A DNA stretch of 64,000 nucleotides, filler included, from Sphacelaria rigidula (taxonomy: Eukaryota), in NCBI GenBank assembly GCA_964200075.2. It is 6 parts of 6 records of this genome, joined end to end, with 100 filler letters (N's around TTAATTAATTAA, not from the genome) between each part and the next. Parts side by side here need not be neighbours in the genome. Positions count along the whole stretch, not along the records: positions 10,692 to 21,282 come from CAXNAA020006231.1; positions 21,383 to 31,972 come from CAXNAA020006232.1; positions 32,073 to 42,660 come from CAXNAA020006233.1; positions 42,761 to 53,348 come from CAXNAA020006234.1; positions 53,449 to 64,000 come from CAXNAA020006288.1; 1 more part is not named here. One strand, written 5' to 3'. Made by a program: the position numbers and the translations under genes. The number at the start of each line of letters is the position of its first letter. Within the stretch, counting starts at the first letter, position 1. The notes under the pieces are model-generated. The model was not told the DNA's origin and ran no database searches. It saw only the letters and a list, made by a program, of their open reading frames with translations. Below, one piece after another: positions 14,601 through 64,000 of the stretch.

Positions 14601-17600
14601 CCCGATATCGCCCATGGTCAAGCCTTGACGTCTGTCGTTTTTCAAGTCGCAAAACACACCAGTTAATCTCGTCAAGTTGAGGTTGAGCGGATGCTGAGGG
14701 GATGAAAATCAGTACGTCGGAACCCCTGATGGCGCTTTCTGGTCAAGCTACGTACGTATACGTGTCGGTACGCGGGGTGGGCGATACATGCCGTCGTACG
14801 GAAGTAAGCGGTGCATGTGTATGAGCGTTTATTTTCGTTTGTTCTCTCCCCTCCTTTTTTTTTTCGGTCCAGATGTTCCTTTCATGTGTAGCAGTCATCC
14901 TTCATCGTCGATAAATCTTCGTTTACCACGCCTTGGATATCATGTAGGTACTGTAGCCACGTGATATTGGCCACGTCAAATGGGATGTCTACCCCGCTGT
15001 TTGAAGTGATTAGTTTCATTCGTGTGTGTGCGTGTGTGTGAACACGATCATTTCCACTCCGTTTTCTCGTCTGTCGTGATGAAAATATCTCGAGACAACT
15101 GTGGCGCATGGGACATGTGGGCAAAAAAGTTGTCACTGCCCATTTGGTTGGGACTGGGGTACGCGGTGTATTTCACCCCGCCTGGATATCATCCTAGGGT
15201 GATGCGTCTTTGGGTGTAGTGGGGGTCCCGACATATTGCGGTCGGTCGCCAGCCTAGAATGATCGCACTATGCTGGAAATCGGTGTAATACTGGGATGAT
15301 GCAAATTTATTATAGCGGCGTGGCCGTTACACCTTGACGTGATTCACGAACATTCATTCTATAAAGAGGAGGATATTGGATGATGGGCCGGGTTGCTGCA
15401 ACGTCCTACGTGAAGTGCATTACATTTCTGCACATGAGACACAAAACGGTCCCCTTGCTGGTGCAGGGGGGTTTCGTGAAAAAGAAGTAAGCCACTGTAC
15501 TGTGCCGCCCTTCGACTCTCCTCATATCTTTTTGTGCTGTTTCGTCTCGTCTCTCCTTCTTTTTTTTTCTTCACCCCTCCGTTCAGACGAGCAAGCCAGC
15601 CTTCAACAGTTACCAACCGCCCAGCATCGCCGCTGACAAGCAGCCGGACGCGATGGTTGATGTGCCCCCCAACGTGGTAGGGTGGGTCATCGGGAAGAAC
15701 GGTTCCCGGATAAACGACATACAGCAGCGCACGAATGCAGCCGTGAGTTTTTTTTCCTGTTTTTCTCACGAGGGGGGGGGGTACTCATGATCATGCATGC
15801 CATTTTGAGAGCAGATTTAGAAATGTACTCACTTGAACAGAGACATGAGAAGATTAAGTTGGCAACATAGCGTAAAGAGCATGCAGAGAAAAAGATTGCC
15901 AGCCATAGTTGATGATGCTATATAGAAGTAACGAAAGGTCAAGCTGAGATAAGGTGGGATAGAGAAGCCGAGAAAGTATGGAAGGAGACGAGAGGAAACC
16001 AAGACGAAAGTAAGAGACATGATGGACATGAAGGAAGAGGAAACCCTGAGACGCGAAGTAGATGAGGAAGAACAGGTGAAGATGAACAGGAGGTTGAGAG
16101 AGGGGATAGGGATGAAAATATATCCGCATGGCCCAACGGACGCGGCGAAAAAATTGAACCCGCGATTTTGGGTGGGGGACCTGGACCTGCCAGAAAGAAA
16201 AAAGAGATAAACCAGCAGTCGAGAGGAAGAGGAAACAGATGCACAGAATTGCCCCTGTGGCAAAGTAGTAGAAAGCAGAGTTCATACAGTTGAAGAATGT
16301 GAACTACACAGGGATCAACGGGGACGTGCCACTCGTAAAAAGGGGAATGCGTGACGTGAACGAAGGTGGTATGAGATAGTCTGATGCGTGAGACAAGAGA
16401 AAAAAAACTATGCCTACGAGGGAGACGGTGGCCACAGACGGCGAGGCATGGCGGGGGAACGATTTGTAAACTGTTTTTTGTAACGTATGGAAGAAACGTC
16501 ATGGGCACCGAAATAATTGAAGTGTCTCTCATTAGAAGTAGGAGCGATGCTCCGTCTCGAAAGGGATGCGTGGTCAATGGTCAAACGACTACGGCAAGCA
16601 ACAAATGAGTACGCCCCCCTCCCTCTCCTCTTGTGTCTCATTTCTCTAGATGTGGATGGATCAGAACTTCCCGGAGGGCGAGATGCGCAAGTTGCATATC
16701 CACGGCAATAAAGCGCAGGTGGAGGCTGCGATCCAGGAGGTCGAGTTCCTCATGAACTCCGCCCCTGTCAACAACTCCCGCCCGGGCAAGGGCTCTGAGG
16801 TGCATAAGAATACTGTTTGCCCAAAGCCGAGCCGATATTTTTCGCGCTTGAAGAAAATGTCACGTCCAGTGAATGCTGTAATTTCGTGTTCGTATGTATT
16901 TTCCGCGTGTGCACATGCACGTCATGCATGTAATACAGTACGCTCGTTTTGTCGAGAGGTCAAAATCGATTACCTCGCGGGGGGAGCTGTTTTGCCGGAC
17001 CGTTAGTTTGTGCGGTTTCGTGTTGTCCTTCGAGGTGTTCCACGTCACGAAGGAAACACTGCAATTTCTGGGAAAATCGAAGTATTGAAGCTGTGGTGGC
17101 TCGGGAATTCATTTTGCTTCACAAACGAGCACACGTCGGACACACTATGATCTGTCTGAAACGACCAATCGAAGAAGATTCTCACTCGAATTATGTCGTT
17201 TCAAAAACACGAAGAATGTGATGGCGGAGTCGAAAAGGCCAAAGCACGACCTTTGCGCTACTCGGCGTGCTTGGCGTCCGGCGCTGTAAGGAGCGAACAT
17301 GAGGAAGGGGGGCCACCTGATCCGGATCATGATTCGGATCAATAGACTGAGATGTGTGCAAATGAGCCATGCGTGTAATGTTTTGTGGGGTGTTGTGTTG
17401 GCCCATGCTCTAATCGATCGTTTTGTCTGTTGACGATGTTGACTCATGTCCTCGAGCTACTCCGTTTTTTCTTCATCTTATTTATTTTATTTTGGCTCTC
17501 GCCTCAAATGTGTGCTTTGTTTTTCGTTGACTTCTTGTTTTGGCAGTATCAAGCAGTGCCACCGGGGCATCCAGATATCGCTCCACCCCCTCCCGTCAAA

Positions 17601-20779: not shown

Positions 20780-20970
20780 GCTCCCTAGTTGGGCGCTAAA
20801 GGGAAGGGAATACCATGTGTAAAGGTTCTCGTATAATGTACGAGGAATACGTACGGAACGCCCAAATGTTAGAGGTGTTTCCGAAAGGGTCGGGAACGGT
20901 GTACCGTCTTGAAGGGGTGCCTAGTCAATGGTCAAATGCCTGAGGCAAGTAAAAGAGGCGTACCCCCCGC
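20780..20970 (+). mobile_element. Old 3' stub of family L
   Basis: cccaaatgttagaggtgttt...ccgtcttgaaggggtgcctagtcaatggtcaaatgcctgaggcaag...gtacccccc. Confidence 0.65.

Positions 20971-21395: not shown

Positions 21396-21430
<35 letters not shown>
21396..21430. repeat. Poly(G) tract (35 nt)
   Basis: Read directly. Confidence 0.95.
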
Positions 21431-21431
<1 letters not shown>

Positions 21432-21924
21432 GGTACCGTTATTTCCCGATATGGGGCCCCTCGATGCTACGGTATGGGTTGCACTTTTTGTTTCTGGGTC
21501 TCTTTTTCGTAAGAGCCCAAATATATGAGGCTCAGACCATCTTGTATGGCAGTCACAAAAACGGATCTGTACGCAGATCGGGAGATCTCAGATCCGGAAA
21601 CGTCATGTATGGACCCCTATTTGGCCCAAATCGGGGAAGCTCAGATTCGTGTGTCACGATTTTGAGAACGATTTCCCCCGAATCTGAGCGCAGATCGGGG
21701 AAAAATCGAAAAATCGAGGTCCCCCGAATCTGTAGGAAGTGACGGACGTACACTGACTTACGGTGATAGGGCAACGGGCGTTTGATGTTTTTGCAACCAC
21801 AGCAGCAGACAGCCTCGTGACAGCCCAGGGCGTGCCTGCCGGCGCCAGCTACTGGAGTGGCTTCGCACGGGGTTTGACAAGCGGATAAGAAGTGTTGACG
21901 CCATACCCTGCTGCGATGGTAATA

Positions 21925-24589: not shown

Positions 24590-24631
24590 ATTGGTCCTAT
24601 GACTATGGCATGCATGATCATGAGTACATCC
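24590..24631 (+). mobile_element. 42-nt 3' stub of family S with 13-bp TSD
   Basis: TSD cccctaccgtagc at 24577-24589 and 24632-24644. Confidence 0.85.
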
Positions 24632-24644
24632 CCCCTACCGTAGC

Positions 24645-29034: not shown

Positions 29035-30156
29035 TGCTGTCTAGCCGCATTTCGCATTTTGGTCATGACAATTGAACCTTCCTTGAATGATGTTGGCACA
29101 AATAATGTGTGTGTTTACTCTGCTCGTGGTCGTTAACGCCTGGCTGACCCCTCGTGTGTTGCCAGCATAACTTCTCACTCCGTGCAGCGTTGTTGTGGAA
29201 TACAAAGCAGGGACATCAGTAGCATGCAGCAGACCGTGTTCAGTGTAGAGCGATGGCACGCTGCTTGTTTCTTGCCGGTGTATTTAGCGAAGACATACAG
29301 CACACATCCGTACTCTGCACGTACTAGAGTGCAGGGTCACGACCGATCAGGGCTTCTTTGCGACTCTTTTCTCTACAGATGCCCAGCATCCACATGTGCA
29401 TGAAAAAATATTTTTTGTGTAGCGAGAAAATAGCCGTACTGAACCCCAAAGGTGGCCTACGTGGTCAATCTCCGTCCACCTCCGGAGGGTCGCTGTCGAA
29501 GGGTTAACAGGGGGGCGAGGGCCTGTCCACAGAACAGTCGAAAAGCGCGCCAAGTCAACCATGTGTGTACGGAAATTTTGCAAGGAAAATTACAAGCCAA
29601 GAAGGTGGCCCGAGAGGAGCGGAGTGACCATTCTGACCAATCACAACTATCGAAATGGTCACTTTGTTCCTCTACGGGTGGACTACAGGTGGGCTACTTC
29701 GCTGTCTAGCCGCATTTCTCGCTTTTGTCATGACAATTCAACCATTGATGACATCGACACGAAGAACGTGCTTTTTTACTCTGCTCGTGGTCTATGCCGC
29801 CTGCGGGACCCCTCATGTGTTGCCAGCATGACCTGGCACTTACTGTATTGCTGCCGTAAAAGACTACGTAGAGAGATATCAGCAGCATTCAGTAGAGTGT
29901 GTTGCAGTGGACAGCGATGGCACGCGGGCCGTTTCTTGCCGTTGCGTCCAGTGAAGACAGAGCACTCGTACTGATTCAGCACGAAATTGAATGCAGGGTC
30001 GAAAAGCTGTCAGGGGTTCTTCGGGACTCTTTTCTATTTATGCCCAAACACTCACATGTTCATGAACAAAGGCGTTTTGTGTGGCGAGAAAATAGTTGTT
30101 CTGAACCCCAAACGTGGGATAGTCTGCCTCAGTCCACGCGCGGGGGGGTCGCTGTC
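29035..30156. repeat. Diverged tandem duplication (about 29035-29505 and 29700-30156)
   Basis: Both copies carry gctgtctagccgcattt...catgacaatt...ttactctgctcgtggt...gttgccagcat...agcgatggcacgc...ctgaaccccaaa...gggtcgctgtc. Confidence 0.85.
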
Positions 30157-31462
30157 TGATGACTATGGCATGCATGATCATGAGTACACCCCTCGACCCC
30201 TGAAGAACCTCGGATTTTCCTGAACTTTCATCCCTCGAAACTATTCCGAGGCGTCACTCGCCGTCAAAGGGTTAATCGTCTAGTCAAGGGGCAGATGGCC
30301 ACCTCCTCAAAAGTCTGGGGTCATCATTTCTCGTTGATTAAGCGCCATGTGGAGTGATTCCTATACCGTACGGAGATAGGGTCCACAGCAACGTCGGTAT
30401 GAATCCCCGGACAATATGTACAGCGGGTTATGATTTTTGGTGTGAACATTCCCTGCTTTTTTTGAGCCTTTCATGACGGGTTTTGGCGGAATATGGGCCT
30501 TGGCAGATTGGACCTCCTCTGAAATATTTGCTGTCCGTTCCAAGAGGATTCTAGTCACTTTCCCGACCTTTCGTGCACCCACTTTTACTTTCGTCATTTT
30601 GTAGATGAGGAACGTGCGCTGGAATCCTCCTGGAATGCACAGTAAATATTTCAGAGGAGGCCCAGTCCGCTGAGGTCCGTATTCCACCAAAACTCCGCGA
30701 TGAAAAGCTAAAAAAGAACAATCTCCGCGAGCCCGTTTTCTGATGTTACGAAGCGCCCCAATTCGTCATCTATCAAGATACAGGGCGCACATATCATTCC
30801 GTACTAGGCTCGATATTTTTGCCCTTGGCCCTTGTAGATGGCGAGAGTAGGCCATCTGTTTAATCGGCATCATTTTCACTTGAAAAGAGTATGCGTGATG
30901 CAGATAGACTTCCCTTGCGGTCCAAGGGTAACTCAGCTGAGAATTGTGTTTTGAAATTGTGTGTGAAGACACGCAAGGGCACCCTTGTGACGAAAATGCC
31001 TGGACCATGGTTTTTCGATAGTTCATGTTCCTGTGAAAAATGGTCCTCACTACACGAAAACGTCCTGAACTCACCAACCCCTCCCCAAAAAATCCCGCGG
31101 TTTATTTTTCATTATTATACCGTTGCGATTCTCCACATGAAATCTCAAAGTACGACTTTCAACGCTGAGCTGCTAAATGGCCTGCAACATACAGCCCAAT
31201 TTGTACGTTTGCCCAGCCTGTAAATGTGCGTTCTTCCCTCAATTTTGAGGGTGCACTTGAAAATTTGGTATACGAGCTGGGGCCAGCCTAGAAGCGGATC
31301 TGTAGCTTGCGGGTCCATTCTCGCCTCAAACTGGTTTGGAGAATCGCTTGGGCATAATAAAACAGTAAGTTGCGGTCGATGAGATTTTCTGCATGAGTTA
31401 AGGGTAAAAAAACAATTTGCAGTTTTCATGAAAATCTCCTTGAGTCATGAAAAAAGCATCTC

Positions 31463-35579: not shown

Positions 35580-38500
35580 TCACGAGTCACCGCTCTTGAG
35601 CGCTCGCTTCGCCATCAACCCAAACAACATTTGCGGCGCCAAGGCGCGCAGTAATACGGCAACTTTAACCTTCAAGTCTGCAATCACAACCTCGTCCCTT
35701 CCTTCCGCCACGGCCATCCACACCGCACTCGCCACCTCCCGCGGGTCTCGACCGGTCGCCGTGGACTTGTCCATCTGTGCGTGTCGGCTGCCGTCACCTG
35801 ACAAAGCGTTCATGGACAAGCTGTAACACGCGGACGAGGCCCGAGGATACGATACGGCCGGATTGCGTGCACGCATGTATCATATCCTGTCGGCAGATTT
35901 TGAGCTGGGTGTCATCGTTCATTACCTCATGTGCTCCGCATGGAGTTCTCCACGTCATGAATTCCCCCCCCCTCCCTCCTTTTTTTGCGGTGACCATGAT
36001 TGTGGTCGACCTTGTGCGGGGTGGTGAACCCGAAGTCCGCACAAAGGGGATGATCGTACGACGTAGTGTTCTACGGTGAGACAACACTGAGGCAGTGTAA
36101 CCCGTGGCTGTCTCTGGAAACGACGATACCAGAAAATGAAGCAACGCATTCTAGGCAGTCATCCATATGGAAGAAAAATATGAGGCTTCGGGCAGAATAA
36201 CCTTAGCAGGATGCAGCTCACCCCTCATGCGACTCGCCGAACACAACACGGCGCTTTGCGCTTGGCGATTGATTGCGAGCCTTGTCTGGCAAAAAAAACG
36301 TCGTCCTGCGCCCCGGCTTTATAGGGATGCGAAGTCAATATTCTCATGACTACGGCATCCAAGATCATGGGTACATCCCCTTCCCCCCCAAGAATACCAA
36401 CCAGTTCGACGATACCTAACAGAGGCCGCACCAGCGGCAAACACTGCCGTCCATATCACAGGAACGAGAAAACTAAAAAACGGTGAAACTCGCACCCTTA
36501 CCCACCCATTCTACGAGCACACAAGAAGTGACACGTTACACCACAGGGAACAAACGCACACGCGAAAATAAAAATAAAACGCGTGTCCTACCTTGTTCTG
36601 ATGTAGCCCGGCAGCACAGTGGTCACTCGGACTCCGAGATGCGCAGTTTCCGCGCGCAAGCAGTCAAAGAACCCGACGAGCGCGTGTTTCGACGCGGCGT
36701 AGCTCGACCGGAATGCGATGCCGAACTTCCCCTGAACGCTGTTAACGACAACGAAATGCACTCCCGCCGAGCTCCCCGGTTCGCGCGCCTGCGCCGTCAG
36801 CAACCCCTTCGCCAGAGCCACGGCGCCGAAATAGTTGACTGCCATCACTCGCTGAGCAACCTCCAGCGACGTATCTTCGACGCTTGCGCGTGTAGATACC
36901 TTTGGGATGACGGGGGGGAAAGAGAAGGGGCAGAAGGTCGGAGGGTAATGGTGTAAGGGAATGAGGCTGAGCTGTTCTCATTGCCGTTCCGTCGCTCCAC
37001 GTGAACGCTAAATACACACACACAGATTATCCTGGGGTATGGAGGAGACACACACCTATCCACTTGTGTTGCACAGCTCGTGGATAATGACGGGACAAGA
37101 GAAGATTATGAAGAAAGTGAGTAAAATCATACCTGCGACGACTCTGGAAAAATATATACACATGGTACATATATAGAATATTTCGAACTCACGAGCGCCA
37201 AGCATACTTTGTAACGAGGCGTCCACGAGATTCAATGCTGATGTTAGTGTGTAAGTTCCTCCGCACCCGCCCCGGGAGATAACTGTTCCGGCCAATGCCA
37301 ATGCTAGGGGTCCGGTTACCGGATTCGTACTTTATTTTGTGAGGGGGTACACATGCGTTCGCGACCGTTCGAACGGACGCGCGATCGCGGTGGTCCTGCA
37401 ATATTTCAGGCGGGCATGAACATTACGAAGGAGGATCTATTCTCACGAGGGCTTGGCAAGGCAAGAATACCGAGACGCTAAAAAGAACGGACGGGACCGG
37501 GGCGCAGCCCCGGGTCCCGTACGGCTTGTATATATATATATATATATATATATAATGTATGTATTGATGAAATCAGCCGTAACAAGAACTAGAACCGCAG
37601 ACAAAAATCATACCGAGGGCGGATTGACATTGTCAGGATCACACTGCGACGACCTCTGTCATATTTTCGCAATTTTTGAGTTGTGCGGCGACTCCACGCG
37701 TTCGTTCAAGTTTCATTCATTCTCCCAAAATATTTTCAAAATCATACGGTCGTGGTGGAGGCCGTAGCTGAAATAGAAACTGTGGGAGGTCGCTCTGGAT
37801 CATGAGGACGACAGATGTCATACCGGTGTTCATCGTTATGACGCACGCTCAGCCTACACAACGCCGTGCTCCACGAAACCGATGCCAAGACACACTATAA
37901 TATAGAGACACGCTTCATACATTGATGTCAACGGGAAGAGCTTCACAAGCTACGCGCCGGCGCGAATATGAAGTATCTGATGATCGCCAGCTTGGCTTTA
38001 CTTGGGGTTATCCCAAATCCGCACGAAACTCACACGTTACAAAATATATATTTACATACGACGAGAACATTCTACATCAATCATTAGAAGGGGACGATGT
38101 TCTTTCTTTTCAAGCTGTATATCAAAATCCATATTATTTGACAATGAATGACTGTTGTTCAACGCTGTCCGCAGAAAAACGTGCCCTGGTGAACGCAGCT
38201 GTAGCGTGGCTATGGTGCTTTTTTTTGTGAACTTCAATGAGTACGACCAACCGTCAAGCCATGCCACCATGGTTGATAGGGTGCTACGGGCTCGGCCCAT
38301 TAACTTTTGCCTGCGTGTGTGTTGTTGCGCGCGTCATTAATCAAGGACAACCGTTTTCTTTTTCTTCAGTTGGTACTGTCGGGTCTGTTTCTGCTATATT
38401 TGCAAATGGTAATTACACTTCGTGTTCTGCTTCATCATGGTCAACAAAGATCCATCAAGCATCAGAGTACAATGATGGGCAATATGTGGTGACACAGTAG

Positions 38501-42760: not shown

Positions 42761-43053
42761 GGATGCGAGGTCAATGGTCTGATGACTATGGCATGCATGA
42801 TCATGAGTACACCCCCCCTCCCCCCGTTGTGGCCACAGACGGCTAAACAGGACGGAGGTAAGATATGTAAAATGTTTCTGTGTAGTGTATGGGCGAAGGG
42901 TAATGAGCGCCCAAATATTGGAGGCGTTTCTATTAGGAGTAGGAACGGCGTTCCGTCTCGAAAGAGGTGCGTGGTCGATGGTCAAGCGGCTGACGCAAGC
43001 AACAAACAAGACCATGCATGATCATGAGTACACCCCCTCCCCCTCCCTCCGTT
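42761..43053 (+). mobile_element. Stacked C-tailed retroposons: a family S end, then a chimeric L+S insert with 13-bp TSD
   Basis: TSD ccctccccccgtt (42816-42828) / ccctccctccgtt (43041-43053). Confidence 0.78.
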
Positions 43054-43222: not shown

Positions 43223-46200
43223 ACACTTGGGGTGTTACCCTTCCCGAGGGCTACTTCGACAATGCGGTGGGACCGGAACCGTTTCGGCAAACCGTTTCAA
43301 GATTCGGTGGTCCCGACGCCGTGGAACAGTGGGAGCGCTTGACGGCACATCTCTTGGAGCTGTCGGAGTGCACCATGGGCCTTCCTCCATTTTCGCTGAG
43401 GACGGGACCGGGAGCGTTGGTCACTTTGTCTCGCTTTCTGCCCACTCTCGTCAAGGTTGTCAAGGCGGGTCCAAGGTGTGTGTTGCAAGATATGAAAATA
43501 TGGTTTATGGAATCACGTCGGATTGGATTAGACGTGCCGAGTTATTGCACAGTCGGTGTCAAAACGCTCATGGCTTGCGTGGTATGTAGAAGAGCGTGCT
43601 GGTGTGTGTGTGGGGGCGTATTGAACGATAATGATGATCGTTCGCGGAAGTAACCCCAAATTTTATCGGCCAGTAACTTCTCCACCGACCGAAGGTGGGT
43701 CAAGACGGGCGAAGTGTCGAAGCACGTCTTGGCACGTGAGAAACGCTGTAGCGTGGCCTCTTCGTCAGTGGCGAGCAGTGGTGGGGCCTCTAGCAGCAGG
43801 CGAAGCTGGGAGTCTTGAAGTGTGAATAGGTTAATGAATGAAATCCCCGAAAAACCGAGGACGGTGCCCTCCTGAGTTTTGTTCTCGTAGATGTGCCGTA
43901 TGCTTTTACGCCTGGTGTGGCACGACCCGTCGTATGCGACGAGCGCAAAGCCGCGGTGAGTTTGGAGCGTGGTTCACAGCCCCCGCGAAGAGTTGAGAAG
44001 ATACCCTGGAGACGAGGTCAGGGGATCGAGCCACATACAGCATCGCTTGTAAATGAAGAAATACAATATCCTTGCCCCAGCCCCACCATACAGACTATTT
44101 TCCCTTCACTCCATTTTCAAGGTAATTTTTCATAGTAACAAAACAATTTTTCAAACACGCGTTCCTGAGTGCAGCTCACGGAAGGTAGTCAGAGTGGATG
44201 CTTATCTTCCCGCCCGCTTTCACAGGTTCCTCAGGGATTCCCACTTGTCATACATGTCCCAGGATTTCGAAGCGATCTCCCATTTGCTCCATTTTTCCGA
44301 CCGTTTTTGTCAGTGACGCATCATCCCCCCTCCCCCCCCCCGTACGTTTCTGAATGATGCCCAAAGCTGCCAGTGTTAATAAACAAGGCTGTCAGTGCTG
44401 ATAAACATCGTTTTTCTCCGACTTTCATCGATTCCGTGGGGGCCCCAGTCATTACATGCCCATGATGTCGGAACAACTAACTCTACCCATACTTGATTCC
44501 TCACGCCGTTGTTGTAAGGTATGGATACAAACTATATACACCTGCAATAAAGCAAACCCAAGTCTGCCAGTGTCCTGTTCTTTCTTCTTCCGCTCAATTC
44601 CACCGGTTTCTCGAGGTCCACGATCGCGAAGTATCGCTGGGGATCTACCTCAAACAAGTTAATCAAACCCTGACAACCTTGGGTTCACTTTCAGCATTCC
44701 GTGTTCGAAAATTCGTCTTCCAACCTCTCAGAGTTGCCTGGGAAATAGTTGCCGACTGATGTACGCGCCTGCCTCCGTCCGTGCAGCAAGCTAAACACGG
44801 ATATCGTTTTTGCCGTTTGGAAGTATCATGTGATTTTTTCTTGCTGCGGACGGGTCTGCTCAAGTGTCCTGTTGTCGGTGATGAGAAAGTGCGTTGTGTG
44901 TTCGGAGCCTCGTTCTGTCATTTTCTTGCCTTCTTGAGCTGTGTCTTACGGCGTCAAACGTCTCGTGGTATTTGAGTGTTTTTTTGTACAATACAATACA
45001 AGCGCGGTGTGTGTTCCTCGTGTCCATGCTCAAATCAAATTTTCTCTTTGCTTGGTGTTAACTAGCACGATTTCGTTTTGTTGTTCATGCTTCAGGTAGT
45101 TGCCGTACGCTGCAGAGGTAGGTCCACGACCACACCGCATATCATTGGTTGCTTGATATGTATTCCAACATTGCCACATTGACCTCCCCTCATCGTCTTG
45201 CCAGCTGCACGCTTTGCCAAACCTTGAGGTGGTCCTTTCCCAGACAATGTTGTCGAGTGTTACACTACAGTATTACATATACTCCGCAACCCCCCCGTCC
45301 GTTCTCGCGATCCATTGATATTTCGTTGGACCACCGAATGTTCTGCATGCTTTAGTCTCCAGGACCCGTTCACCGACGTCCTGAAGAAACTGGAGATCAC
45401 GGACCCCTTTGTGTGCAACTGGCTTAACCTCCTATGCTTCTTACTCCAAGGCTTGCCGTCGGACGGCACTTCGACGGCTGTGATGGCGTACATGATAGCG
45501 GACTGGTGCAGACCTGTGAGGGCTAGGACATACCACCGTAACCCGATAGTGGGAGACGAACTCTGTGAATTTCAAAGTGAAAGTGACAGTTTGACATAGC
45601 TGTTTTGATATGATAGTGAATATGAGTACTGAACATTTTTTTCTTAGTATCGCTTTTTTTGGTTGTTCCGTCGCTCTTTTTTCGTCGTCTCCCTTTTTGA
45701 GTTTCCTTCATCCCGAGTTCCCATTTTGTTCCCCTGGAGGCACGTCTACATTGTGTCTATCATGATGACAACGGCCGAATCCCTCGGGGATAAGTTCACG
45801 CGCGATCCATCAATCCATCAATCAGCCCCTTCAATCAAAATATTGCCGGTGTCTTGGCGGGTAGTGTGACCCACAAGAGCGGACATGTGCAAGGCGCGTG
45901 AGGGGATGAATGTTGAATGAAACAGCGCAGCAAATAAGTGTGGCATGAAAAAGTCAACTCACCAGCGTACGACCCCACAATCCTCTCCAGGGCACGTGAT
46001 CAATACAAGTGTTCGTGCACAGAGCAGCGTTCCTATGTGCTGGAAGCCATGTACGTGTCATTTGCTATCACAGACCAGTGAGGCAGCGACGACATATATC
46101 AAGGGCGTATTGAAGGGAAGGGTGAATGTACGAGATACCTCACGCATGCCCCCGTCCCGGCGTGCTCCTTCAGGACTTCGTAGGGATGCGAGGTCATGGT

Positions 46201-49200
46201 CTCATGACTACGAGATGCAAGATCATGAGTATACCCCCCCCTCTCTCCCTCCAACCTTCGTATTGTGTATACCCCACACGTTGTGGATATGTACGTCATG
46301 CCTTGTGGATCACTTTTTTCCAGTGGTTTCAAAATATGCTACTGCCGCTTCAAATGTATCACTCCCTTCCGGCAACTGTACGTTGCTTTGCTCCCTGTCC
46401 CACTACAATCGGTAGAGGTCGGGAATGGTTTGTCTAATCATTTAACTGGTTAATGGGTACGCGTAGCGCACTTGGCTTCACAACAGCTAGAAAAACACGT
46501 GAAATTCGGGCCATTTTTTGAGGGACAAAACCATAGCGCACTTGGCTTGGAATTTCGAGAAAAAATAAGTAGCCCATTATAAACCTTTATCGGAAAGTTA
46601 TAGGACCGTGCTGCATGTTGTGTACTCTCTGTTGTAGCGATGTGCTGTGTGTAGCGCACGTAGCCGGTAACGGCTTGTGAAGCCGGCAACAGTAAGTGAT
46701 GGTCTGAAACAATGATACATTTTTTTCATACAGCCATTACCATTATTATCATTATAATGATCATGACCAGTTATAACTGATGCTATTTTCGAGCTCCGAC
46801 AATCGGCCGTGTGTGGTTCAATTGGACACCGTGCGTTAGGGTGTGGTGCTTGACTACCCGAAGGGAGGAACAGAGGCTATGGTTGATGCTCTGGTTCGTG
46901 GCGTGGAAGGCAAGGGGGGTAAAGTGATGTTGTCGGCGCATGTTGAGGAGGTCGTGGTGGAGGACGGAAAAGCACGCGGTGTGCGGCTGAGAGGAGGCAA
47001 GGTGGTACGAGCTAGCAGGTGAACGTGGTGTTTCACCTCGGTGGGTGTTGGAAGCCGATACGATACTGTGATGGCGGAGCATGTTGTTTTTGAGCATCTA
47101 AGGATTCACTGCTCTGTGCACATTCGGTTTTGAACATGGATGAGATATACAGGTATCATGGACTGGAGAACTAACAAACTAGAGGTTCGGAAGAGTATAT
47201 ATTGTACATTCATACCCTCCAACAACAGTAGAAATCGCCACAACCCCCAGGCGAAAACATCCCGTTCTGCTTTGAATCAGACACACCGCGCGTCCGCTGG
47301 CCCCGTTTGTGTTCTTCAAAATATTTCTTTGAAAATCTTTCGCTTCGTTCCACTGCACCAAAAAACATCCCACGTCAGGTCCGTCGTTTCGAACGCAAGT
47401 ATATGGGACACCCTAAAGCTCCTTCCGGAAGGAGCTCTACCAACAGAGTTTGTAGACCAGAAGCGGGCCACTCCCCATTGTAAGAGCTTCATGCACGTGC
47501 ACTTGGGTGTGCGCTGCCAAGACCTAATCGACAACAATGCAAACGCTACACCCGAGGACCCGGGGACAGATGGTTTCCATCCCCGGTGCCACTACGCCGT
47601 GGTGGCGGATTGGAGCAAGCCTATTGACGATGCCGGTAACGTGATCGTTGTGAGCATCCCCTCTGTGCTGGATCCTTCCTTAGCCCCCCCGGGATGCCAC
47701 ACTGTGCACGCCTACACGTGAGTACTGTGTGTTTCACTTTGTTTTGTTGAAAACGAAAGAGCAAGCGGACGAGGTTAGTGTGTAAAGTAATTTGAATAAG
47801 CGCAACTATTGGCAGTCTCCTCCACATAGTTTTTTACGGTTGTTCATTTGCAGTTCTTGCTCATTTTACTCCGCTTGTTCTATCCCTCCTTCTTCGTTTT
47901 CCCCCCTTGTAAGGTTCTCTTTAGAGTGTGTTTTTCTTTTTCTCTTCTTTTGTTTCCCCTTTTTTGTTTGTTTGAGATCAGCCATTTTTTTCTGTGCTCT
48001 GATTTTGTTGATTTTTCATGTTATAAATATACACTTTCTTTTAACGTCTAAGTCTACTATGTCGTTCTGTTCGACTTTTTCTGTTCCAGTCTTGTTTTTG
48101 TCGGGTACTTCTCATATGTGACCGCTGCTGGACCCCTGAGGGGCCAGTTAAAGTGCGACAATCAATCAACCAATCAAGTGTTTGCGCTTTGTTTACCTTG
48201 GGTACGTCTATATTGTGGATAATGACCACGACTGCGGCCGGATCCCGTGGGAATCAGTTATTTTGCGACAATCAACCAAGCCAAATGAAAAAGAAGCCGA
48301 CGAATACACCGAAGGAATATCTGACGGATGCATGCAGTCGAAGACCGATTCTTTTCGGTGACCCTGTTTTTACTACGAAAAAAGCAAAGGCCGGGCTCAT
48401 GGCGTATCGAGAACAATCCGCACCCAACTTGCTGACGAATGCACCAACGAAATAATTCACAGAGGCATGCAGTGAAGGACCAGTCCTTACCGCCGATCCT
48501 GTTGTTGCCGTCAAGAGAGCAGAAGCCGGGCTCATCGCATATCGAGAAAAGTCCGCCCTCAACTTAACATTAGTTTTATGCGCAAACATTAACGAGGTCC
48601 AAGGGGAATCCAGTCATATCGCGCAGTTGCTTTGTGTGCAAATTACGTAGGCGCCATTAGTGAATGGTCAATACTGATACCTGCAAATCGACAATATATA
48701 TATATATATATATGTATGCGCGGATGCTCGGGAATTTCGGATTCTAAGCTAGCATTATATAACGGAAATTGGCGCGAGACCAACTTGTTTCCCTTAATTT
48801 GCCCTTTTGTTCGTCGCGGCGGCCTTGCTCGTGCGGCATGCGGCAAAATCAAGCCGTAATCTGCGGACCAAATCGGAAAGTTATCGCACCGCACAAAATC
48901 TCTCCAACTTTTCACGCCACCACGTAGAAGGTAGACGAGATTTCGAAGTGCTCCGAAAGAGCCTGTTGACACTGTAGCAACTGCTCAACAGGCGTAACTC
49001 GACGGCAGGATATGCATATTTTTTACACACAATATTCGCCGGGTAACGGCCTTAACTCTTGTGTCTCATTGGTTTACGACTTTGCATCCTGCGTGCATGT
49101 CGCCTTTCATGCACTTCGCTGTTTCGTTATTGAACACACCGGCTCCCAGGCGCTGTCATATGAAGGATATAGGACTCTTGTGTGAGTAACTCCACCACTT

Positions 49201-53179: not shown

Positions 53180-53348
53180 CATAACTGTCTCTGGAAGTGG
53201 CGATACCAGAAAATAGAGCAACTCATTGGAGGCTGTCATCCGAATGCAAGATAGTTAGTACGCATCGGGCTGGACAATCTTCGCAGGATGCAGCTCACCC
53301 TTCATGCGGCTCGCCGAACACATCACGGCGCTTCGTGCTTGGTGATTG
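53180..53348 (+). mobile_element. Family S body, cut by the contig end
   Basis: ctgtctctggaagtggcgataccagaaaat...gcaggatgcagctcaccc...gtgcttggtgattg. Confidence 0.75.

Positions 53349-53544: not shown

Positions 53545-53584
<40 letters not shown>
53545..53584. repeat. (TTG)n microsatellite
   Basis: Read directly. Confidence 0.9.
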
Positions 53585-54338: not shown

Positions 54339-54719
54339 TGGAGTTGTAACTGACCATTATCACAATAATGGTGATGGTTGTAAGAATTTTTGGATCATGG
54401 TTTCAAACTATTATTCACCGTTACCGGCTACAAGGCCATTACTGACTACAAAGCCATTACCGGCTACGTATGCTACATACAGCCCTTGAAAGTTGGCCCA
54501 AAATTCACGTATTTTGTAGCTCTAGTAAAGCCAAATTGCGTAAAAACGGGCCTCCGACACGGCGCCTCCAGTGGGCTTTCCAGGGACGCCTCCGGCGGGG
54601 CACCCCCTGCGGGGGGGGGGGGGGGGGGGGTTCTCGGCTCGCAGCTCTGCCGCTCGATGGCCAAACTATTATGTACCATTATATTGGTTGACGGTTGAAC
54701 AAACCATTTCCGAGCTCTA
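54339..54719. mobile_element. hAT-type MITE
   Basis: Right TIR catttccgagctcta; near-perfect 8-bp TSD gaatatct/gaatatgt. Inverted relative to 61296-61613. Confidence 0.72.
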
Positions 54720-55102
54720 GAATATGTAGCATAGACTCTCCTCGATTAAACACTAGTAGTAGGGAAAGACAGCACTTGCGTAAACAGGTCCGTCGGCCCG
54801 CGTATATTTCGCATCCTTAGTCGCCACTACTAGCAGTATGCGGACATCAGGTCAGGAAGGAAGATTTGTGTGGTGAGGTGAAGTCATGAAGAGTATGTGA
54901 GTGTGTCCATGAAGGAGGGACGCATACGTCATGTAGGTCATGAAGTCATACTCCAGAGGCTTTCCCTATACTAGAACACATTGCTTTTAACAACAGCGAC
55001 GTACTACTGTGCCAGGGAGGTGCAATACATTTTGTTCGTGCATAGATCTGATGGTGTTGAGGAGTGAGGCTGGGATAGCCCTCCCCCGCCCCTCTCCCGC
55101 CC

Positions 55103-55270
55103 TGTGCTCCACGTGCTCCGTCTCGAAAGGGATGCGAGGTCAATGGCCACACGACTAAGGCAAGCAACAAATGAGTACGCCCCTCCCTCTCCCGCCCCAC
55201 ATTCCGTCTCGCAAGGTATGCGTAGTCAATGGCTACACGACTCAAGCAAGCTACAGATAAGTACGCCCGC
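55103..55270 (+). mobile_element. Two adjacent family L 3' stubs; the first has a 13-bp TSD
   Basis: TSD ccctctcccgccc at 55090-55102 and 55185-55197. Confidence 0.85.
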
Positions 55271-55892
55271 GCTTCATTCCCCCGAAGCAACCCTCACGAC
55301 TGGGATGACGAAAGCGACCATACGGTGCATGCAGCACCTCATGTGGGCGACATTGGCGAAAACGATCCCAAGCGTCGGAGTTCCCAGCTGCTCGGATGTG
55401 CTCGGCTTTTTTTATCATTATGATAGGCATGAAGGTATCGCCTCCTCAAACCGGGCACTTTTCTGATGAGGGCTATCGCGAGATCACACTAGATTGGTCC
55501 ACGTTCCCGTCTCTAGCGTTGATCGACTTGGCGGGTACCCTCGGTCGTGCATGTACTTGACATGTCATCACATCACACAGTACAGAATGATATGCAATAG
55601 ATGGTGGGAGAAAATAATGAAATTGTATTCTCCTCCATCAACGGAAGACGATAGTTTTTCTGCGACAGCCTTTTCAGCGCAAAATAAATGTTTTTTGCGC
55701 GGCTGGCGCCAGCGACTCATGTTCATTTTACAGGCTGTGTTTGTGAGGCAAAAGGGTTCCGAGCAGCAGCAAAACGAAGGAATACGCCAAAAGTAGAGTT
55801 ACTGCTACCGTACAATCGCCGCAGAGTGTTGTGCCGCGCGCTCTCATGGATCATTTCGCATGACGCCGTCACTCCCATTTGACTCGAGGTTT

Positions 55893-55966
55893 TACTCATG
55901 AGACTTTTGACCTCGCATCCCTACGAAGCCGGGACGGAGCACGCCGGGTTTACGCCGGATCAGGCT
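55893..55966 (-). mobile_element. Family S 3' fragment
   Basis: ttgacctcgcatccctacgaagccgggacggagcacgccgggttt is the reverse complement of the S 3' body. Confidence 0.7.
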
Positions 55967-58059
55967 CTGGGGGGAATTTTTTGCAGTCGCCGTTGTCTTG
56001 ATGTTTCCCTCATTGTTTTCCGTTTTGCCCTGTATCGGAGTCTCGGAAGAGGTCGCCCAATTAGTGCCTTTATCTCATTTAAGGAAAAGTAGGGACGGTA
56101 CTGGAAAGGCAAGCCCACGTCCGTGATGGCGAGCTCGAGATATCGAGTTTATGTGCAGGAAATAATAGTCATGACAAGAGGAATAATCTGATACACCCTG
56201 ATGTCACTATTTGGGCAACCGAGGTAAACAAGAACAAAAAAGAAACATGACTGAGCCTAACCGTAAGCAAGATCGATCTGAAATTTAGTCTGCGGGTTGT
56301 TGATTGATACCGACGTAAGAAAAGTGACACCCGTTTTGGCACCCGAATTGTCGTTCGAAAGCTGTTCTCAGGATCTGTTTTTTCTTGACTTGTGAAATAA
56401 GGTATTGGATTTTCGAAGCGTTTCTCACTGCACATATCCTGGTTCGGAGTTTCGGACTTCGAGTTTTGGAGAGTTTTTTTTTGTCAATTTTTCCGTTGTC
56501 TTTCTTGAGTGTCTTCGCTTGCCACCGCTCATCCTAGTAACATTGAGTGATGCCAAAGTTTGGTGACGGGGAGATACTAGGTATCTGCTCCATGTTCCCC
56601 CCCCCCCAAAAAAAAAATCATCTCTGTACTCAACATTGAACGAGCTACGGCCTACCGGTTTTCGGAGTTCCTGCGACTATCAGCCTCAGGTTCTGACCCT
56701 TGGGTATTCTCGCTCGATTGAAGCAATTCCGATGGTCCTCGTGAAAAAGAGCTGAGTAATGTTTTCATCAAATTTTCACCTATTCATTGCGGTAGAGTGG
56801 GAAAACTGTGTTGTTTTTTACCAGTGACGGTCGATAACACCGCTTGATATATAAGGTACTTTCTCCGTGTCACCCTGACAGCACCAACTGAGGATTGATC
56901 TTGCAGACCTTCATTTTCAAGTTTCACCTATTCATCGCGCTGGAGTCGAAAATTAGTGTGTTCTGGACCAAAAACGGTCAAGAGCACGTCATATCAATTC
57001 TGCCAGTAAGTCGTTCAATATTGAGCGCATAGATGATTTGTGTTGTGGAGTGTGGGGCGGATGCCTAGTATCTCTCGACCCTGGAATATCAAACGTTTAC
57101 TGAGATAAGCGGTTGCACTCGAAAAAACTGTAGAAGAATCGTCAACTGCGGGGAAGAAGAAAAAAACAGCTCGAAGCTACTATAATTACGATACAGGAGG
57201 TGGCACAGACTGAAAAAGGCGAAAGTATCCTTTTTATTTATACTTACTCTGTGCCATGAGTAAAGGTTTTTATAATTGCACCGACCCTGAATGGTGTGAT
57301 ATTTGATTTCCGACCTTTTTGTTGCACTCGTCGGCGTTGTTTTAGCTAAAACCAACATCCTTTGTACAACGTGTGTGCTTGACCCATGCAGCCGCGCGAC
57401 CGAGGAAAAGTAGGTCGGTCCAAAAACGGTCATTTTCCGCTCGTTTTCCCAGGAAAGCATGAGAGACCCGGGAGCACGAAAAATCGCAAAAAATGGTCCA
57501 GAAAATGTGAAGATAGCGAAATCACAATTGATTTTGGACATGTCCGTGATCTTCACCTACGCACGCCCCCATCCAACATTTTGTTCGCATATAATTGCTA
57601 GGGCTCGACGTGAAAACGTCGAAAAGTGGTCATTGATGGGGGTTCAAATTCGTTAAAAAGTGTCAAAATGGGGTATATTCTGACATGATTTCAGCGATGA
57701 ATACAAGTTTTTTTCATCAGCTTCGTCTGCGCTTTACCTCTCTAACGAACCAAAGCATAGAATGATTATCAACGTTGAAATACTCAAAAGATTTAACGCC
57801 TTTAAGGACCTTCACTTATGACACAGAGGATGTGTCTGTGGTTGATGTCCAAGCGGTCAAAAATGGTTTCATTTTCAGCTGGGCGATACTGTGCAATTTT
57901 GTAGAACCTAATGGATCATTCCACGAATCAATACTATCGAAGTCGTCACCCCACCGTCAGACCTTTTCCCCCAACTAGAAATTTACTGGAAAGACGCATG
58001 ATTGATCTGGGAAGCACGCTCTAACGATCGGGGAACTCGCATGCCCCCACCCCCACCCC

Positions 58060-58260
58060 TCAATGACAGGGAAATGTGGGAAGTACACGAAGGTGGCATG
58101 AAATCGTTTGGTACATTAGATAGCAAGGAGAAAACAATCGGTATACCAGGAGATAGATGGTCAACGTTGGGTCTATCACGAGCAGGAACGGTACTCCGTC
58201 CCAAGTGAGGGGTGCGTGGTACTTGGTCAACTGACTAAGGCAGCACTACATGAGTACGCT
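58060..58260 (+). mobile_element. Family L 3' fragment following a C-run
   Basis: cgaaggtggcatgaaatcgtttg...ggagatagatgg...ggtgcgtggt...gactaaggcagcactacatgagtacgc. Confidence 0.7.
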
Positions 58261-61295: not shown

Positions 61296-61613
61296 TAGAG
61301 CTCGGACATGGTTCATCTAGCCATCAACCAGTTGAATGGTTACGCGTAGCGCAACCATTAACCATGTAAATGGTACGCGATGGTTTGGTCATCGAGCGGC
61401 GCAGCCACGAACCAAGAAGCTCCCCCCCCTCCCCCCCGAGGCAAGGGGGGCCTCGCCGGAAGGACTCCCGAAGGGTCGCGCTGGAGGCGTCGTGTTTTTA
61501 CGCGATTTAGCTTCACGAGAGCTAGAAAATACGTTGAATTTGGGCCAATTTTCAAGGGCTGTAGCATACGTACCCGGTAACGGTATTATAACTGGTATCA
61601 TTTCCGAGCTCTA
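61296..61613. mobile_element. hAT-type MITE
   Basis: TIRs tagagctcggacatg / catttccgagctcta; same family as 46413 and 54339. Confidence 0.78.
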
Positions 61614-63086: not shown

Positions 63087-63924
63087 GTGAGCAAGTGGCA
63101 CTCGGTAGGGCGGGGACACTCGTGACCCTGGGGGTGTGTATAGGTATGATTGAATAGTTGAAAAAAAATGATGTATGATAGATATCGAAACAGCAGCCGC
63201 CGCTCATGTTGTATTTCACCAGAAAACATTAGTCATGAGCTACAGAACCTGAAGATTAAAAGTACTTGTTATTGGTGTTTTGATCCGGATCATAAGCTAG
63301 CTCATTTGACCCCCTTTTTCCATGCTTGCCTCGCTCAACCCTTGACGCCGAGCATCCGGAGTAACGGAAAGGTACCACTCTTGACTTCTCGGACCCTGCT
63401 GTCACATTTTTTGTGTTTTAGACAAAAGATCTCGAGGGTCCTCTTTGATCAGTTCTTTTAGGTAGCTTGTGAGCTGTCCGACCTGCGAGACACAAGACAC
63501 CTTCTCTTTTTCGCTTCCAGTACACTACGTACTGACATTCTGTACTCACAAGTTACGTTTCCTGTACGAACACCACTGGAGCATGACTTCACCACTCCCC
63601 TCCTTTACGAGATTTACGATGATTTGGATAGCTGCTCTGGTTCGTTTCACTACTCCTGTACTGGAACTCGCATCCTAATGTACTCATGATCATGCATGCC
63701 TGACGTGTGCCTCGATAGCACTCCGCAGAAGAATGGCTGGCTTGAGGTAATACTTAAACGTTCACCTAAATGGCAAGAGTCGAGTACACCGTGCAGCTGG
63801 GAACTCCCACGGTCGAGATCACCATCGCAAATGTCGCCCATATGAGACGTTTCATGCGATCAGAAACCGGCGGTCGTGCGCTGTATGGCACTTGTCTTCG
63901 TAATGGCTTTGAGGCTAGTCCGTT

Positions 63925-64000
63925 GGGTGTACTCGTGATCATGCATGGACCATTGACCTCGCACCCCTACAGTGCCGGGCTGGAGCAGGCCGGGTTTTCG
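63925..64000 (-). mobile_element. Family S 3' end
   Basis: gggtgtactcgtgatcatgcatggaccattgacctcgcaccc; a shorter stub lies at about 63679-63700. Confidence 0.7.

What the first reader, a model, noticed from the sequence alone, without database searches (positions are those of the whole stretch)
15772..64000. Oligo(C)-tailed retroposon pair that targets C-runs and makes 13-bp TSDs
Seen in sequence: more than 15 copies, across all six unlinked contigs, of two related 3' ends. Family L is gggatgcgtggtcaatggtcaaacgactaaggcaagcaacaaatgagtacg-CCCC; family S is gggatgcgaggtcaatggtctgatgactatggcatgcatgatcatgagtaca-CCCC. Copies are variably 5'-truncated, end at the same 3' point, and run into C-runs rather than poly(A). 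Three have 13-bp TSDs that begin with CCC (24577, 42816, 55090). Family L carries a LINE C-terminal CCHC knuckle, and its stop lies 5 nt before the tail. Established: 5' truncation with a fixed 3' end and TSD is the signature of target-primed reverse transcription, and shared 3' ends mark LINE/SINE partners. Typical tails are poly(A) or short microsatellites. Inference: a LINE whose RNA ends in oligo(C) and primes on the G-rich strand, with S as a partner SINE or sister LINE. I do not recognise this as a described family.
Basis: partly seen in the sequence, partly recalled or inferred. Interest (0 to 1): 0.8.

Follow-up and report, generated by a model that had tools for sequence, protein, structure and literature searches.

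The report
Oligo(C)-tailed RTE-X LINE and partners
These repeats are real copies of a brown-alga jumping gene (an RTE-X type LINE) and its short dependent partners, which end in runs of C instead of poly(A); the same behaviour is already noted in the curated Ectocarpus repeat library.

Summary
The window is six unlinked ~10.6-kb contigs of a brown alga or close relative. It carries 17 copies, in all six contigs, of a shared ~50-75-nt 3' end finishing ...GAGTAC(A/G). Copies are variably 5'-truncated (23 to 809 bp). In 11 of 17, a run of at least 4 C follows directly (background 1.3%). Four of 16 copies have TSDs of about 13-15 bp (two of them perfect 13-mers) that start with C.

Three metagenome copies end the same way (C8, C10, C12). 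Two of them carry long open APE-RT-CCHC ORFs whose TGA lies 5 nt before the tail. Contigs of four public runs show hundreds to about 1,800 contig ends per run at that boundary, running into C-runs, plus tandem arrays of a ~66-nt 3' unit.

The TPRT reading is well supported at the DNA level. The novelty claim is not. The Ectocarpus TE library (Genome Biol 2025, supplementary table) lists RTEX-1 and RTEX-2 as "(C)n 3'" with "C-rich" TSDs. It also lists non-autonomous RTEX-N1 and RTEX-N2, which share the 3' end and occur in tandem.

This is a new member of a known kind. The RNA 3' end and the endonuclease specificity remain untested.

The parts
15805..16613 (+). L copy: 5'-truncated, decayed. Holds the CCHC knuckle (16251-16301) and the 3' end ...AATGAGTACG. 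A C6-T-C3 tail/target follows at 16614-16628.
   Evidence: blastn to L003 positions 4147-4997 at 74% identity; sequence and translation
15781..15803 (-). S copy of 23 bp, inverted and abutting the 5' end of the L copy. Its C10 run lies at about 15771-15780 on the minus strand.
   Evidence: nhmmer E=6.7e-4; C-run listing
20802..20960 (+). Old L copy of about 160 bp, followed by C6.
42761..42811 (+). S copy cut by the contig start, followed by C7-T-C6 (42812-42825).
42829..43032 (+). Copy whose body is L (42829-43006) but whose last ~26 nt are S type. It sits inside the C-rich tail of the preceding S copy. TSD 42814-42828 / 43039-43053 (15 nt, 1 mismatch).
55109..55179 (+). L copy reduced to the ~66-70-nt 3' unit. 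Perfect 13-bp TSD at 55090-55102 / 55185-55197, with CCCCT between the 3' end and the TSD.
55198..55265 (+). Second, older ~66-nt L unit in tandem with the previous one, followed by CCCGCGC.
58069..58258 (+). Old L copy with a ~100-bp internal gap relative to L003. No C-run follows it.
24590..24628 (+). S copy of about 39 bp with a perfect 13-bp TSD CCCCTACCGTAGC (24577-24589 / 24632-24644). TCC lies between the 3' end and the TSD. It sits downstream of an unrelated RTE-like RT ORF on the opposite strand.
30154..30188 (+). S copy of about 35 bp, followed by C4.
1689..1719 (-). S copy of about 30 bp between two C-rich stretches (imperfect TSD of about 14 nt).
63679..63701 (-). S copy of 23 bp with no C-run after it.
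36108..36375 (+). N copy: a non-autonomous family of about 270-300 bp. No ORF and no recognised RNA head. It shares the last ~70 nt with L and is followed by TCCCCTTCCCCCCC.
11096..11582 (+). N copy interrupted by a palindromic insert (11169-11397). The 3' tip is decayed and no C-run follows.
46156..46233 (+). N copy, 5'-truncated, followed by C8.
53185..53348 (+). N copy cut by the contig end (5' part only).
55892..55967 (-). N copy that lacks the 3' tip.
63928..64000 (-). N/S-type copy at the window end, followed by CCC.

Best explanation
L is a brown-alga member of the RTE-X group of APE-type LINEs. It has one long ORF (APE endonuclease, reverse transcriptase, C-terminal CCHC knuckle) that runs to within 5 nt of the element's end, so there is essentially no 3' UTR. 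S and N are non-autonomous or heavily 5'-truncated relatives that carry the same ~66-75-nt 3' module and are mobilised in trans.

Proposed integration, by target-primed reverse transcription at C-runs:
1. The endonuclease nicks the G-rich strand at the edge of a G-run.
2. The freed G-run 3' end pairs with a short oligo(C) stretch that follows ...GAGTAC(A/G) in the template RNA.
3. cDNA synthesis starts there. It often stops early, which gives the 5' truncation.
4. The second nick falls about 13 nt away, which gives a C-initial TSD.
5. Each new copy leaves a C-run at its end, so that tail is itself a target. This explains nested and tandem copies and arrays of the ~66-nt unit.

Shown: the anatomy, the C-run association, the TSDs, the ORF and its domains, the abundance, the tandem arrays, and the published annotation of the same traits in Ectocarpus RTE-X. 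Inferred: which strand is nicked and where, the C/G pairing, trans-mobilisation of S and N, and how the template RNA comes to carry C residues. The most likely source of those residues is transcription through the source copy's own tail, with initiation inside it, as recalled for other LINEs with simple-repeat tails.
For: - Copies and their ends: 17 copies share one 3' end. 11 of 17 are followed by >=4 C against 1.27% background.
- TSDs: 4 of 16 copies have TSDs of 13-15 bp, all starting with C, against 0.1-0.6% in controls. In three of the four, 3-6 extra nucleotides (TCC, CCCCT, CCCCCT) lie between the 3' end and the TSD, so some C are not target-derived.
- External copies: 3 of 3 metagenome copies end in ...TACG plus C8, C12 or C10.
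- ORF: L003 holds a 1,426-codon open frame and L001 a 1,253-codon open frame, 75% identical (940/1254). Both stop at a TGA 5 nt before the tail.
- Domains: Pfam Exo_endo_phos at 235-461 and RVT_1 at 807-1056.
- Ectocarpus relative: P0124, 59% identical, ends with the same ...VVNG.TAK C-terminus.
- Genome-wide contig ends: 111,791 / 165,746 / 81,380 contigs of three organism-A runs lie on L003 at >=80% likeness. Of these, 1,636 / 1,794 / 816 contig ends fall at the tail boundary, and their loose consensus continues the C-run by a further 13-17 nt before becoming diverse.
- Short units genome-wide: another 396 / 404 / 324 contig ends lie ~66 nt upstream and run into a C-run. Joints that 'go back' 70-79 nt show tandem unit-plus-tail arrays.
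- Published annotation: RTEX-1/2_Ec32 '(C)n 3'', TSD 'C-rich'; RTEX-N1 'can be present in tandem', '60 bp 3' end 83% RTEX-1/RTEX-2' (PMC12477816, supplementary file 1).
Against: - No RNA evidence: no run holding the stretch is on record as RNA, so the transcript's 3' end is unknown.
- 4 of 17 copies have no C-run and 12 of 16 have no detectable TSD. Age and uncertain 5' boundaries may explain this, but that is not shown.
- RTE-X membership rests on matching a published description and on 59% identity to an unnamed Ectocarpus protein. It does not rest on a phylogeny with reference RT sequences, which were not available.
- The RNA structure proposed for the shared 3' module has no statistical support: z-scores of -1.06 to +0.45, and covariation reached by 62-141 of 500 shuffles.
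- No full-length 5' end or TSD was found for L003.
- The depth gradient towards the 3' end comes from contigs. The tool says such depth cannot rank parts of a gene.
Confidence: 0.8

Rival explanations
1. The C-runs are purely target DNA. The element is site-selective for pre-existing C/G homopolymer tracts, its RNA carries no C tail, and reverse transcription starts at ...GAGTAC(A/G).
For: All four TSDs begin with C, so tail and target cannot be fully separated. The copy at 1689 shows no extra nucleotides between its 3' end and its TSD. C-runs are very frequent in this window apart from these copies: 95 matches to C12 with up to 1 mismatch, against 0.22 expected.
Against: In three of four TSD-bearing copies the downstream side has extra nucleotides that are absent from the upstream TSD copy: TCC, CCCCT and CCCCCT. 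The curated Ectocarpus consensus sequences are themselves annotated with a '(C)n 3''.
Confidence: 0.15
2. S is not a SINE-like partner. It is the 3' end of a second autonomous RTE-X LINE (a sister family, as with RTEX-1 and RTEX-2 in Ectocarpus), seen here only as extreme 5' truncations.
For: All six S copies in the window are 23-51 bp, and none shows a body or a 5' end. One copy joins an L body to an S tip (42829-43032). Ectocarpus has two autonomous RTE-X families with related 3' ends.
Against: The S tip differs from the N tip at only about 3 of 36 positions, so S copies may be truncated members of an N-like non-autonomous family. No S-type ORF was seen, and a scan of genome contigs with an S/N pattern found nothing.
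Confidence: 0.3
3. This is a LINE clade not yet described, and it only resembles RTE-X superficially.
For: The C-terminal CCHC and the ORF reaching the tail are not mentioned in the Ectocarpus notes I read.
Against: The Ectocarpus homologue is 59% identical and has the same C-terminal peptide. The published RTE-X notes match on ORF layout, (C)n end, C-rich TSD, partners sharing 60-100 bp of 3' end, and tandem occurrence.
Confidence: 0.07
4. The C/G runs are sequencing or assembly artefacts, for example poly-G read ends.
For: The loose ends are G-runs on the strand laid.
Against: The runs sit at two defined positions of the element. Within assembled contigs they are interrupted by T and followed by unique flanks and TSDs. 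They also recur in three contigs from separate metagenome records.
Confidence: 0.01

Closest known systems
RTEX-1_Ec32 / RTEX-2_Ec32 (RTE-X LINEs of Ectocarpus; PMC12477816, supplementary file 1)
   Same: Single EN-RT ORF, '(C)n 3'' end, 'C-rich' TSD, brown-alga host, and very high copy number (main-text Table 1 lists RTE-X at 16,418 copies and 3.41% of the Ectocarpus genome). An Ectocarpus protein is 59% identical to the L ORF and shares its C-terminal peptide.
   Different: Different species and sequence family. I could not align to the Ec32 consensus sequences. The notes give no TSD length and do not mention the CCHC knuckle, the stop codon 5 nt from the tail, or the ~66-nt unit.
RTEX-N1_Ec32 (607 bp) and RTEX-N2_Ec32 (188 bp), non-autonomous partners
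   Same: Head of unknown origin, 60-100 bp of 3' end shared with the autonomous RTE-X, C-rich TSD, and 'can be present in tandem'. N (about 270-300 bp) and the tandem ~66-nt units behave the same way.
   Different: Different lengths and bodies. Homology of the bodies was not tested.
L1 with Alu (poly(A) tail pairing with a T-rich nick site); from recall
   Same: A homopolymer tail complementary to the primer strand at the nick, trans-mobilised partners, 5' truncation, and TSDs of similar size.
   Different: C/G instead of A/T. The partners share a specific 3' sequence module with the LINE rather than only the homopolymer. A poly(A) tail is added after transcription, and I know of no equivalent process that adds C.
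LINEs with simple-repeat tails: RTE-1/2_Ec32 '(CAA)n 3'' and CRE-1_Ec32 '(CA)n 3''; eel UnaL2/UnaSINE1 (recall)
   Same: A non-poly(A) repeat tail, and partners that share the LINE's 3' end.
   Different: Here the repeat unit is a single nucleotide, and the target itself is a run of that nucleotide.

Membership tests
Non-LTR retrotransposon integrating by TPRT | Fixed 3' end with variable 5' truncation | tested here: met
   17 copies of 23-809 bp end at the same point. Genome-wide contig ends pile up at the 3' boundary.
Non-LTR retrotransposon integrating by TPRT | Target-site duplications flanking individual copies | tested here: met
   4 of 16 copies have TSDs of 13-15 bp. Controls gave 3 of 2,946 and 17 of 2,929.
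APE-type LINE | ORF with an N-terminal AP-endonuclease domain followed by a reverse transcriptase | tested here: met
   Pfam Exo_endo_phos E=6.7e-13 (residues 235-461) and RVT_1 E=1.1e-30 (807-1056) in the L003 ORF. Best PDB matches are L1 ORF2p at 3e-22 and R2 at 4e-18.
RTE-X clade (as curated in Ectocarpus) | RT domain groups with Repbase RTEX references in a phylogeny or best blastp | not testable with these tools
   No reference RT sequences are held here. [quoted passage not shown]
RTE-X clade (as curated in Ectocarpus) | Single EN-RT ORF; (C)n 3' end; C-rich TSD | tested here: met
   compared with supplementary file 1 of PMC12477816.
RTE-X clade (as curated in Ectocarpus) | Full length of about 5.5-5.9 kb | tested here: inconclusive
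   L003 holds 4,997 bp up to the 3' end, with 711 bp upstream of the ORF. No 5' end or TSD was found.
SINE (for S and N) | 5' head derived from tRNA, 5S, 7SL or snRNA with a Pol III promoter | tested here: not met
   Rfam gathering search of the whole window gave 0 hits. ARAGORN gave 0. An Rfam E<=1 search on 35950-36400 gave 0. So S and N are filed as LINE-dependent non-autonomous elements with an unknown head, as the Ectocarpus curators did.
L1-like poly(A) LINE | Poly(A) tail at the 3' end | tested here: not met
   None of the 17 window copies or 3 external copies is followed by an A-run. The loose-end consensus at the tail boundary is a C-run on the element strand.
Penelope-like element | GIY-YIG endonuclease C-terminal to the RT | tested here: not met
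   Pfam reports only the APE domain (N-terminal) and RVT_1.

The most novel reading that the evidence does not exclude
C/G homopolymer pairing may be the actual specificity rule of this LINE, a natural non-A counterpart of the L1 poly(A)/T-rich rule. A ~66-nt module derived from the last 22 codons of the ORF, plus a few C, may be enough for mobilisation. Its own tail would then recreate its target, so the element seeds self-extending tandem arrays and much of the genome's C/G homopolymer load. None of this is analysed in the papers and supplementary table I read; the C tail and C-rich TSD appear only as curators' notes.
Probability: 0.4. Interest if true: 0.55.

Novelty: new member of a known kind. 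Interest (0 to 1): 0.3.

Why it matters
A LINE that uses a C homopolymer where L1 uses poly(A) is a natural experiment on how tail-primer pairing sets LINE target choice. It also bears on how a tail that no known enzyme adds is kept from copy to copy. In brown algae these elements are the most abundant repeats: main-text Table 1 of the Ectocarpus paper lists RTE-X at 16,418 copies and 3.41% of the genome, and the most abundant single family, RTEX-N1, at more than 6,000 copies. Their rules shape intron and intergenic content and create long C/G runs that are hard to sequence. As a discovery it is modest, because the kind and its hallmark traits are already in a curated library.

Tried and rejected
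- Whole genome: none is held for this window. Genome-wide tables of tails, TSDs and target logos could not be built from sequence.
- Earlier findings: nothing on this genome or sequence.
- RNA evidence: no RNA holder is listed among the 12 runs. Run X6 is only guessed to be RNA. Its contigs cover the element and run past the tail into flanks, which says nothing about the template's 3' end.
- Other collections: viral contigs gave 0 hits with the L/S pattern. Genome contigs gave 0 hits with an S/N pattern.
- L003 5' end: no 5' end or TSD found.
- RNA structure of the shared 3' module:
  - RNAalifold gave only a 7-bp hairpin with no compensatory change.
  - Single-sequence folds had z-scores from -1.06 to +0.45.
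  - A closing stem between GUGCUC at the module start and GAGUAC at its end, plus three inner helices, paired 88.8% of cells, but 141 of 500 shuffles reached that figure. The covariation score was reached by 62 of 500 shuffles. I treat this as unsupported.
- ESM Atlas: only unnamed RVT_1 clusters and a Tx1-named cluster at 0.95. No help with the clade.
- Literature on C tails:
  - 'LINE' + 'retrotransposon' + 'C-rich tail' returned 0 papers.
  - Six phrasings of poly-C or oligo-C tail and C-rich TSD returned 137 papers. None of the 25 listed concerns retrotransposons.
  - Searches on RTEX/RTE-X, and passages read in four further papers, mention the clade but not its tails.
- Depth gradient: the contig depth gradient (highest in the 3'-most 342 nt) fits 5' truncation. 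The tool warns that contig depth cannot rank parts of a gene, so I do not count it as evidence.
Full report
**What the window is.** The 64-kb window is six unlinked pieces of about 10.6 kb, joined by artificial N44-TTAATTAATTAA-N44 spacers. No whole genome is held for it. An RT fragment at 25121-26179 (minus strand) has its best named relatives in brown algae: Sphacelaria rigidula, Ascophyllum nodosum, Ectocarpus and Pylaiella, at 40-70% identity. Runs that hold the sequence are labelled as one coded organism or as algae or protist metagenomes. I treat the source as a brown alga or close relative.

**The observation.**
- A 20-mer from the L end occurs 7 times with up to 3 mismatches, against 0.01 expected.
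- A profile built from four window copies finds 17 copies at E<1e-3, in all six contigs. The four seeds are among the 17.
- All copies are collinear with one 3' end...GAGTAC(A/G). Lengths range from 23 to 809 bp.
- In 11 of 17 copies a run of at least 4 C begins within 3 nt of that end (background 1.27%, binomial p about 1.6e-17). In 13 of 17 it is at least 3 C (background 4.0%).
- Four copies lack a C-run: 11582, 55892, 58258 and 63679.
- For the copy at 20956 I shifted the end by 4 nt to the true end of homology.

**Target-site duplications.** I compared 35 nt on each side of 16 copies. Four gave matches scoring at least 12:
- a perfect 13-mer, CCCCTACCGTAGC, around the ~39-bp S copy at 24590-24628;
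- a perfect 13-mer, CCCTCTCCCGCCC, around the ~70-bp L copy at 55109-55179;
- a 15-mer with one mismatch around 42829-43032;
- a stretch of about 14 nt with one difference around 1689-1719.

The same search scored at least 12 in 3 of 2,946 random pseudo-insertions and in 17 of 2,929 pseudo-insertions anchored on C-runs. All four TSDs start with C. In three of them, 3-6 extra nucleotides (TCC, CCCCT, CCCCCT) lie between the 3' end and the downstream TSD copy. So part of the C-run comes with the element and not from the target. The other 12 copies show no TSD. Several are old (71-82% identity to L003), and the 5' limits of the N copies are uncertain.

**The autonomous element.** The window's own L copies are decayed. 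A scan of metagenome contigs with a 23-base degenerate pattern gave three external copies.
- All three end in ...TACG followed by C8, C12 or C10.
- L003 carries a 1,426-codon open frame. L001 carries a 1,253-codon frame that is open to the contig end.
- The two proteins are 75% identical (940/1254) with 4 gaps. Both frames stay open at that divergence, which suggests functional copies, although no rate test was run.
- Pfam finds an AP-type endonuclease (residues 235-461) and a reverse transcriptase (807-1056).
- A C-x-C-x8-H-x4-C knuckle lies about 115 residues from the C-terminus.
- The best solved relatives are L1 ORF2p (3e-22) and R2 (4e-18).
- Relatives include an Ectocarpus sp. protein at 59% identity that ends in the same ...VVNG.TAK peptide.

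The ~66-75 nt shared by L, S and N are therefore the last codons of the LINE ORF plus 5 nt.

**The partners.** N is a non-coding repeat of about 270-300 bp. It is seen at 36108-36375, at 11096-11582 (interrupted by a palindromic insert), at 53185-53348, and as shorter copies. It has no tRNA, 5S, 7SL or other Rfam-recognisable head. S is seen only as copies of 23-51 bp. Its tip differs from the N tip at about 3 of 36 positions. The data cannot tell whether S is a truncated N-like element or the end of a sister LINE. One copy (42829-43032) has an L body and an S tip.

**Genome-wide support.** I laid Logan contigs of three organism-A runs, and of one run guessed to be RNA, on L003 at >=80% likeness.
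- 111,791 / 165,746 / 81,380 / 7,281 contigs were recruited.
- The commonest loose ends lie at the outer edge of L003's own C10 tail, in 1,636 / 1,794 / 816 contigs of the three organism-A runs. Their consensus continues the C-run for 13-17 more positions and then becomes diverse (agreement about 0.4).
- A second class (396 / 404 / 324 contigs) ends ~66 nt upstream of the 3' end and also runs into a C-run.
- Joints that 'go back' 70-79 nt show tandem arrays of this unit plus its tail. For the 179->104 joint the counts are 22, 29 and 10 contigs.
- The window has one such pair, at 55109-55179 and 55198-55265.
- No A-run consensus appears at the 3' boundary.
- The summed depth is highest at the 3' end, but the tool warns that contig depth cannot rank parts of a gene. 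I do not lean on it.

**Mechanism.**
- The anatomy is the classical TPRT signature.
- My reading is that the endonuclease nicks the G-rich strand at the edge of a G-run.
- The G-run 3' end then pairs with a few C that follow GAGTAC(A/G) in the template, and the second nick falls about 13 nt away.
- Each insertion leaves a fresh C-run, so resident tails become targets. That explains the nested copy at 42829 and the tandem units.
- All of these steps are inference.
- No enzyme is known to me that adds oligo(C) to RNA, so the C residues are most likely transcribed from the source copy's tail. Reverse transcription would then start inside them, as recalled for other LINEs with simple-repeat tails.
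- The recurrent ~66-nt truncation point coincides with the upstream limit of L/N homology (GTGCTCC...).
- A stem between that point and the GAGUAC tip can be drawn, but it has no statistical support.

**Comparison with what is known.**
- The curated Ectocarpus TE library describes the same traits (Genome Biol 2025, PMC12477816). I read passages of the main text and part 1 of supplementary file 1.
- It describes RTEX-1_Ec32 as 'single EN-RT ORF; (C)n 3'' and RTEX-2_Ec32 as '(C)n termini/TSD'. Both have TSD 'C-rich'.
- It also lists non-autonomous RTEX-N1 (607 bp; '60 bp 3' end 83% RTEX-1/RTEX-2'; 'can be present in tandem') and RTEX-N2 (188 bp; 'could be SINE').
- RTE-X is listed at 16,418 copies and 3.41% of that genome (main-text Table 1).
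- An RTEX-1 was also reconstructed for Saccharina japonica (PMC4421812, passages).
- I could not test RT-domain phylogeny against Repbase references, so RTE-X membership is by matching description and by homology to Ectocarpus proteins.
- My searches found no paper that analyses the C tail mechanistically. The searched library omits most subscription journals.

**Verdict.** This is a real and well-resolved LINE/partner system. The DNA-level interpretation is right and the novelty claim is wrong. It is a new member of a known kind. The details added here are:
- TSDs of about 13-15 bp, two of them perfect 13-mers;
- an ORF that ends 5 nt from the tail;
- extra C between the 3' end and the TSD;
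- a ~66-nt unit that forms tandem arrays.

Noticed in passing
window 25121-26179 (-), with ORF remnants to about 24990: Fragment of a different, RTE-like LINE. Pfam RVT_1 scores just under the cut-off (28.9 against 29.6 bits). It has no CCHC, and its C-terminal region resembles brown-alga proteins at 60-71% identity. The S copy at 24590-24628 lies downstream of its ORF on the opposite strand.
   Followed up: partly
window 15771-16628: Head-to-head arrangement: G10, then an inverted 23-bp S tip, then a 5'-truncated 809-bp L copy, then a C-run. The layout looks like twin priming from both nicked strands on two different RNAs. No TSD was found, so two separate events are equally possible.
   Followed up: no
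window 21396-21430 (C35 on the minus strand) and 21466-21487 / 24568-24589: A 35-nt C-run at the start of contig 3 is preceded by ...AACGGTACCA, which may be the tip of another C-tailed family. The 22-mer AAAGTGCAACCC(A/C)TACCGTAGC occurs only twice in the window (0.00 expected). Each time it lies directly upstream of a short sequence that ends in a C-run. One of these is the TSD-bearing S copy. Unexplained.
   Followed up: partly
window-wide, e.g. 12936-12947, 42570-42591, 44332-44341, 54611-54630, 56597-56607: C/G homopolymer runs are greatly over-represented: 95 matches to C12 with up to 1 mismatch against 0.22 expected. Many are not next to a recognisable L, S or N end. Two (54611-54630 and 61422-61437) lie inside another repeat pair (54454-54697 and 61352-61583). 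Further C-tailed families may be present.
   Followed up: partly
window 53542-53583 (-), 10322-10348 (-), 7278-7292 (+): (CAA)n arrays, 22 pattern matches against 0.64 expected. The Ectocarpus library notes '(CAA)n 3'' for its RTE-1 and RTE-2 families. I did not check whether these arrays are RTE tails.
   Followed up: no
window 11169-11397: A ~230-bp perfect-type palindromic (self-reverse-complement) repeat inserted in an N copy. Similar self-inverted repeats lie at 2988-3277, 6352-6541, 9961-10299, 30459-30715 and 31500-31896. They are probably MITE-like elements.
   Followed up: no
window 32392-33378 (+): Open frame of 328 codons with a pseudouridine synthase domain (PF00849, E=2.6e-18). 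It is the only clear host gene fragment seen.
   Followed up: no
window 40663-40724: An isolated 62-bp piece, 90% identical to an internal part of the L ORF (L003 element positions 1659-1720). It is not 3'-anchored.
   Followed up: no
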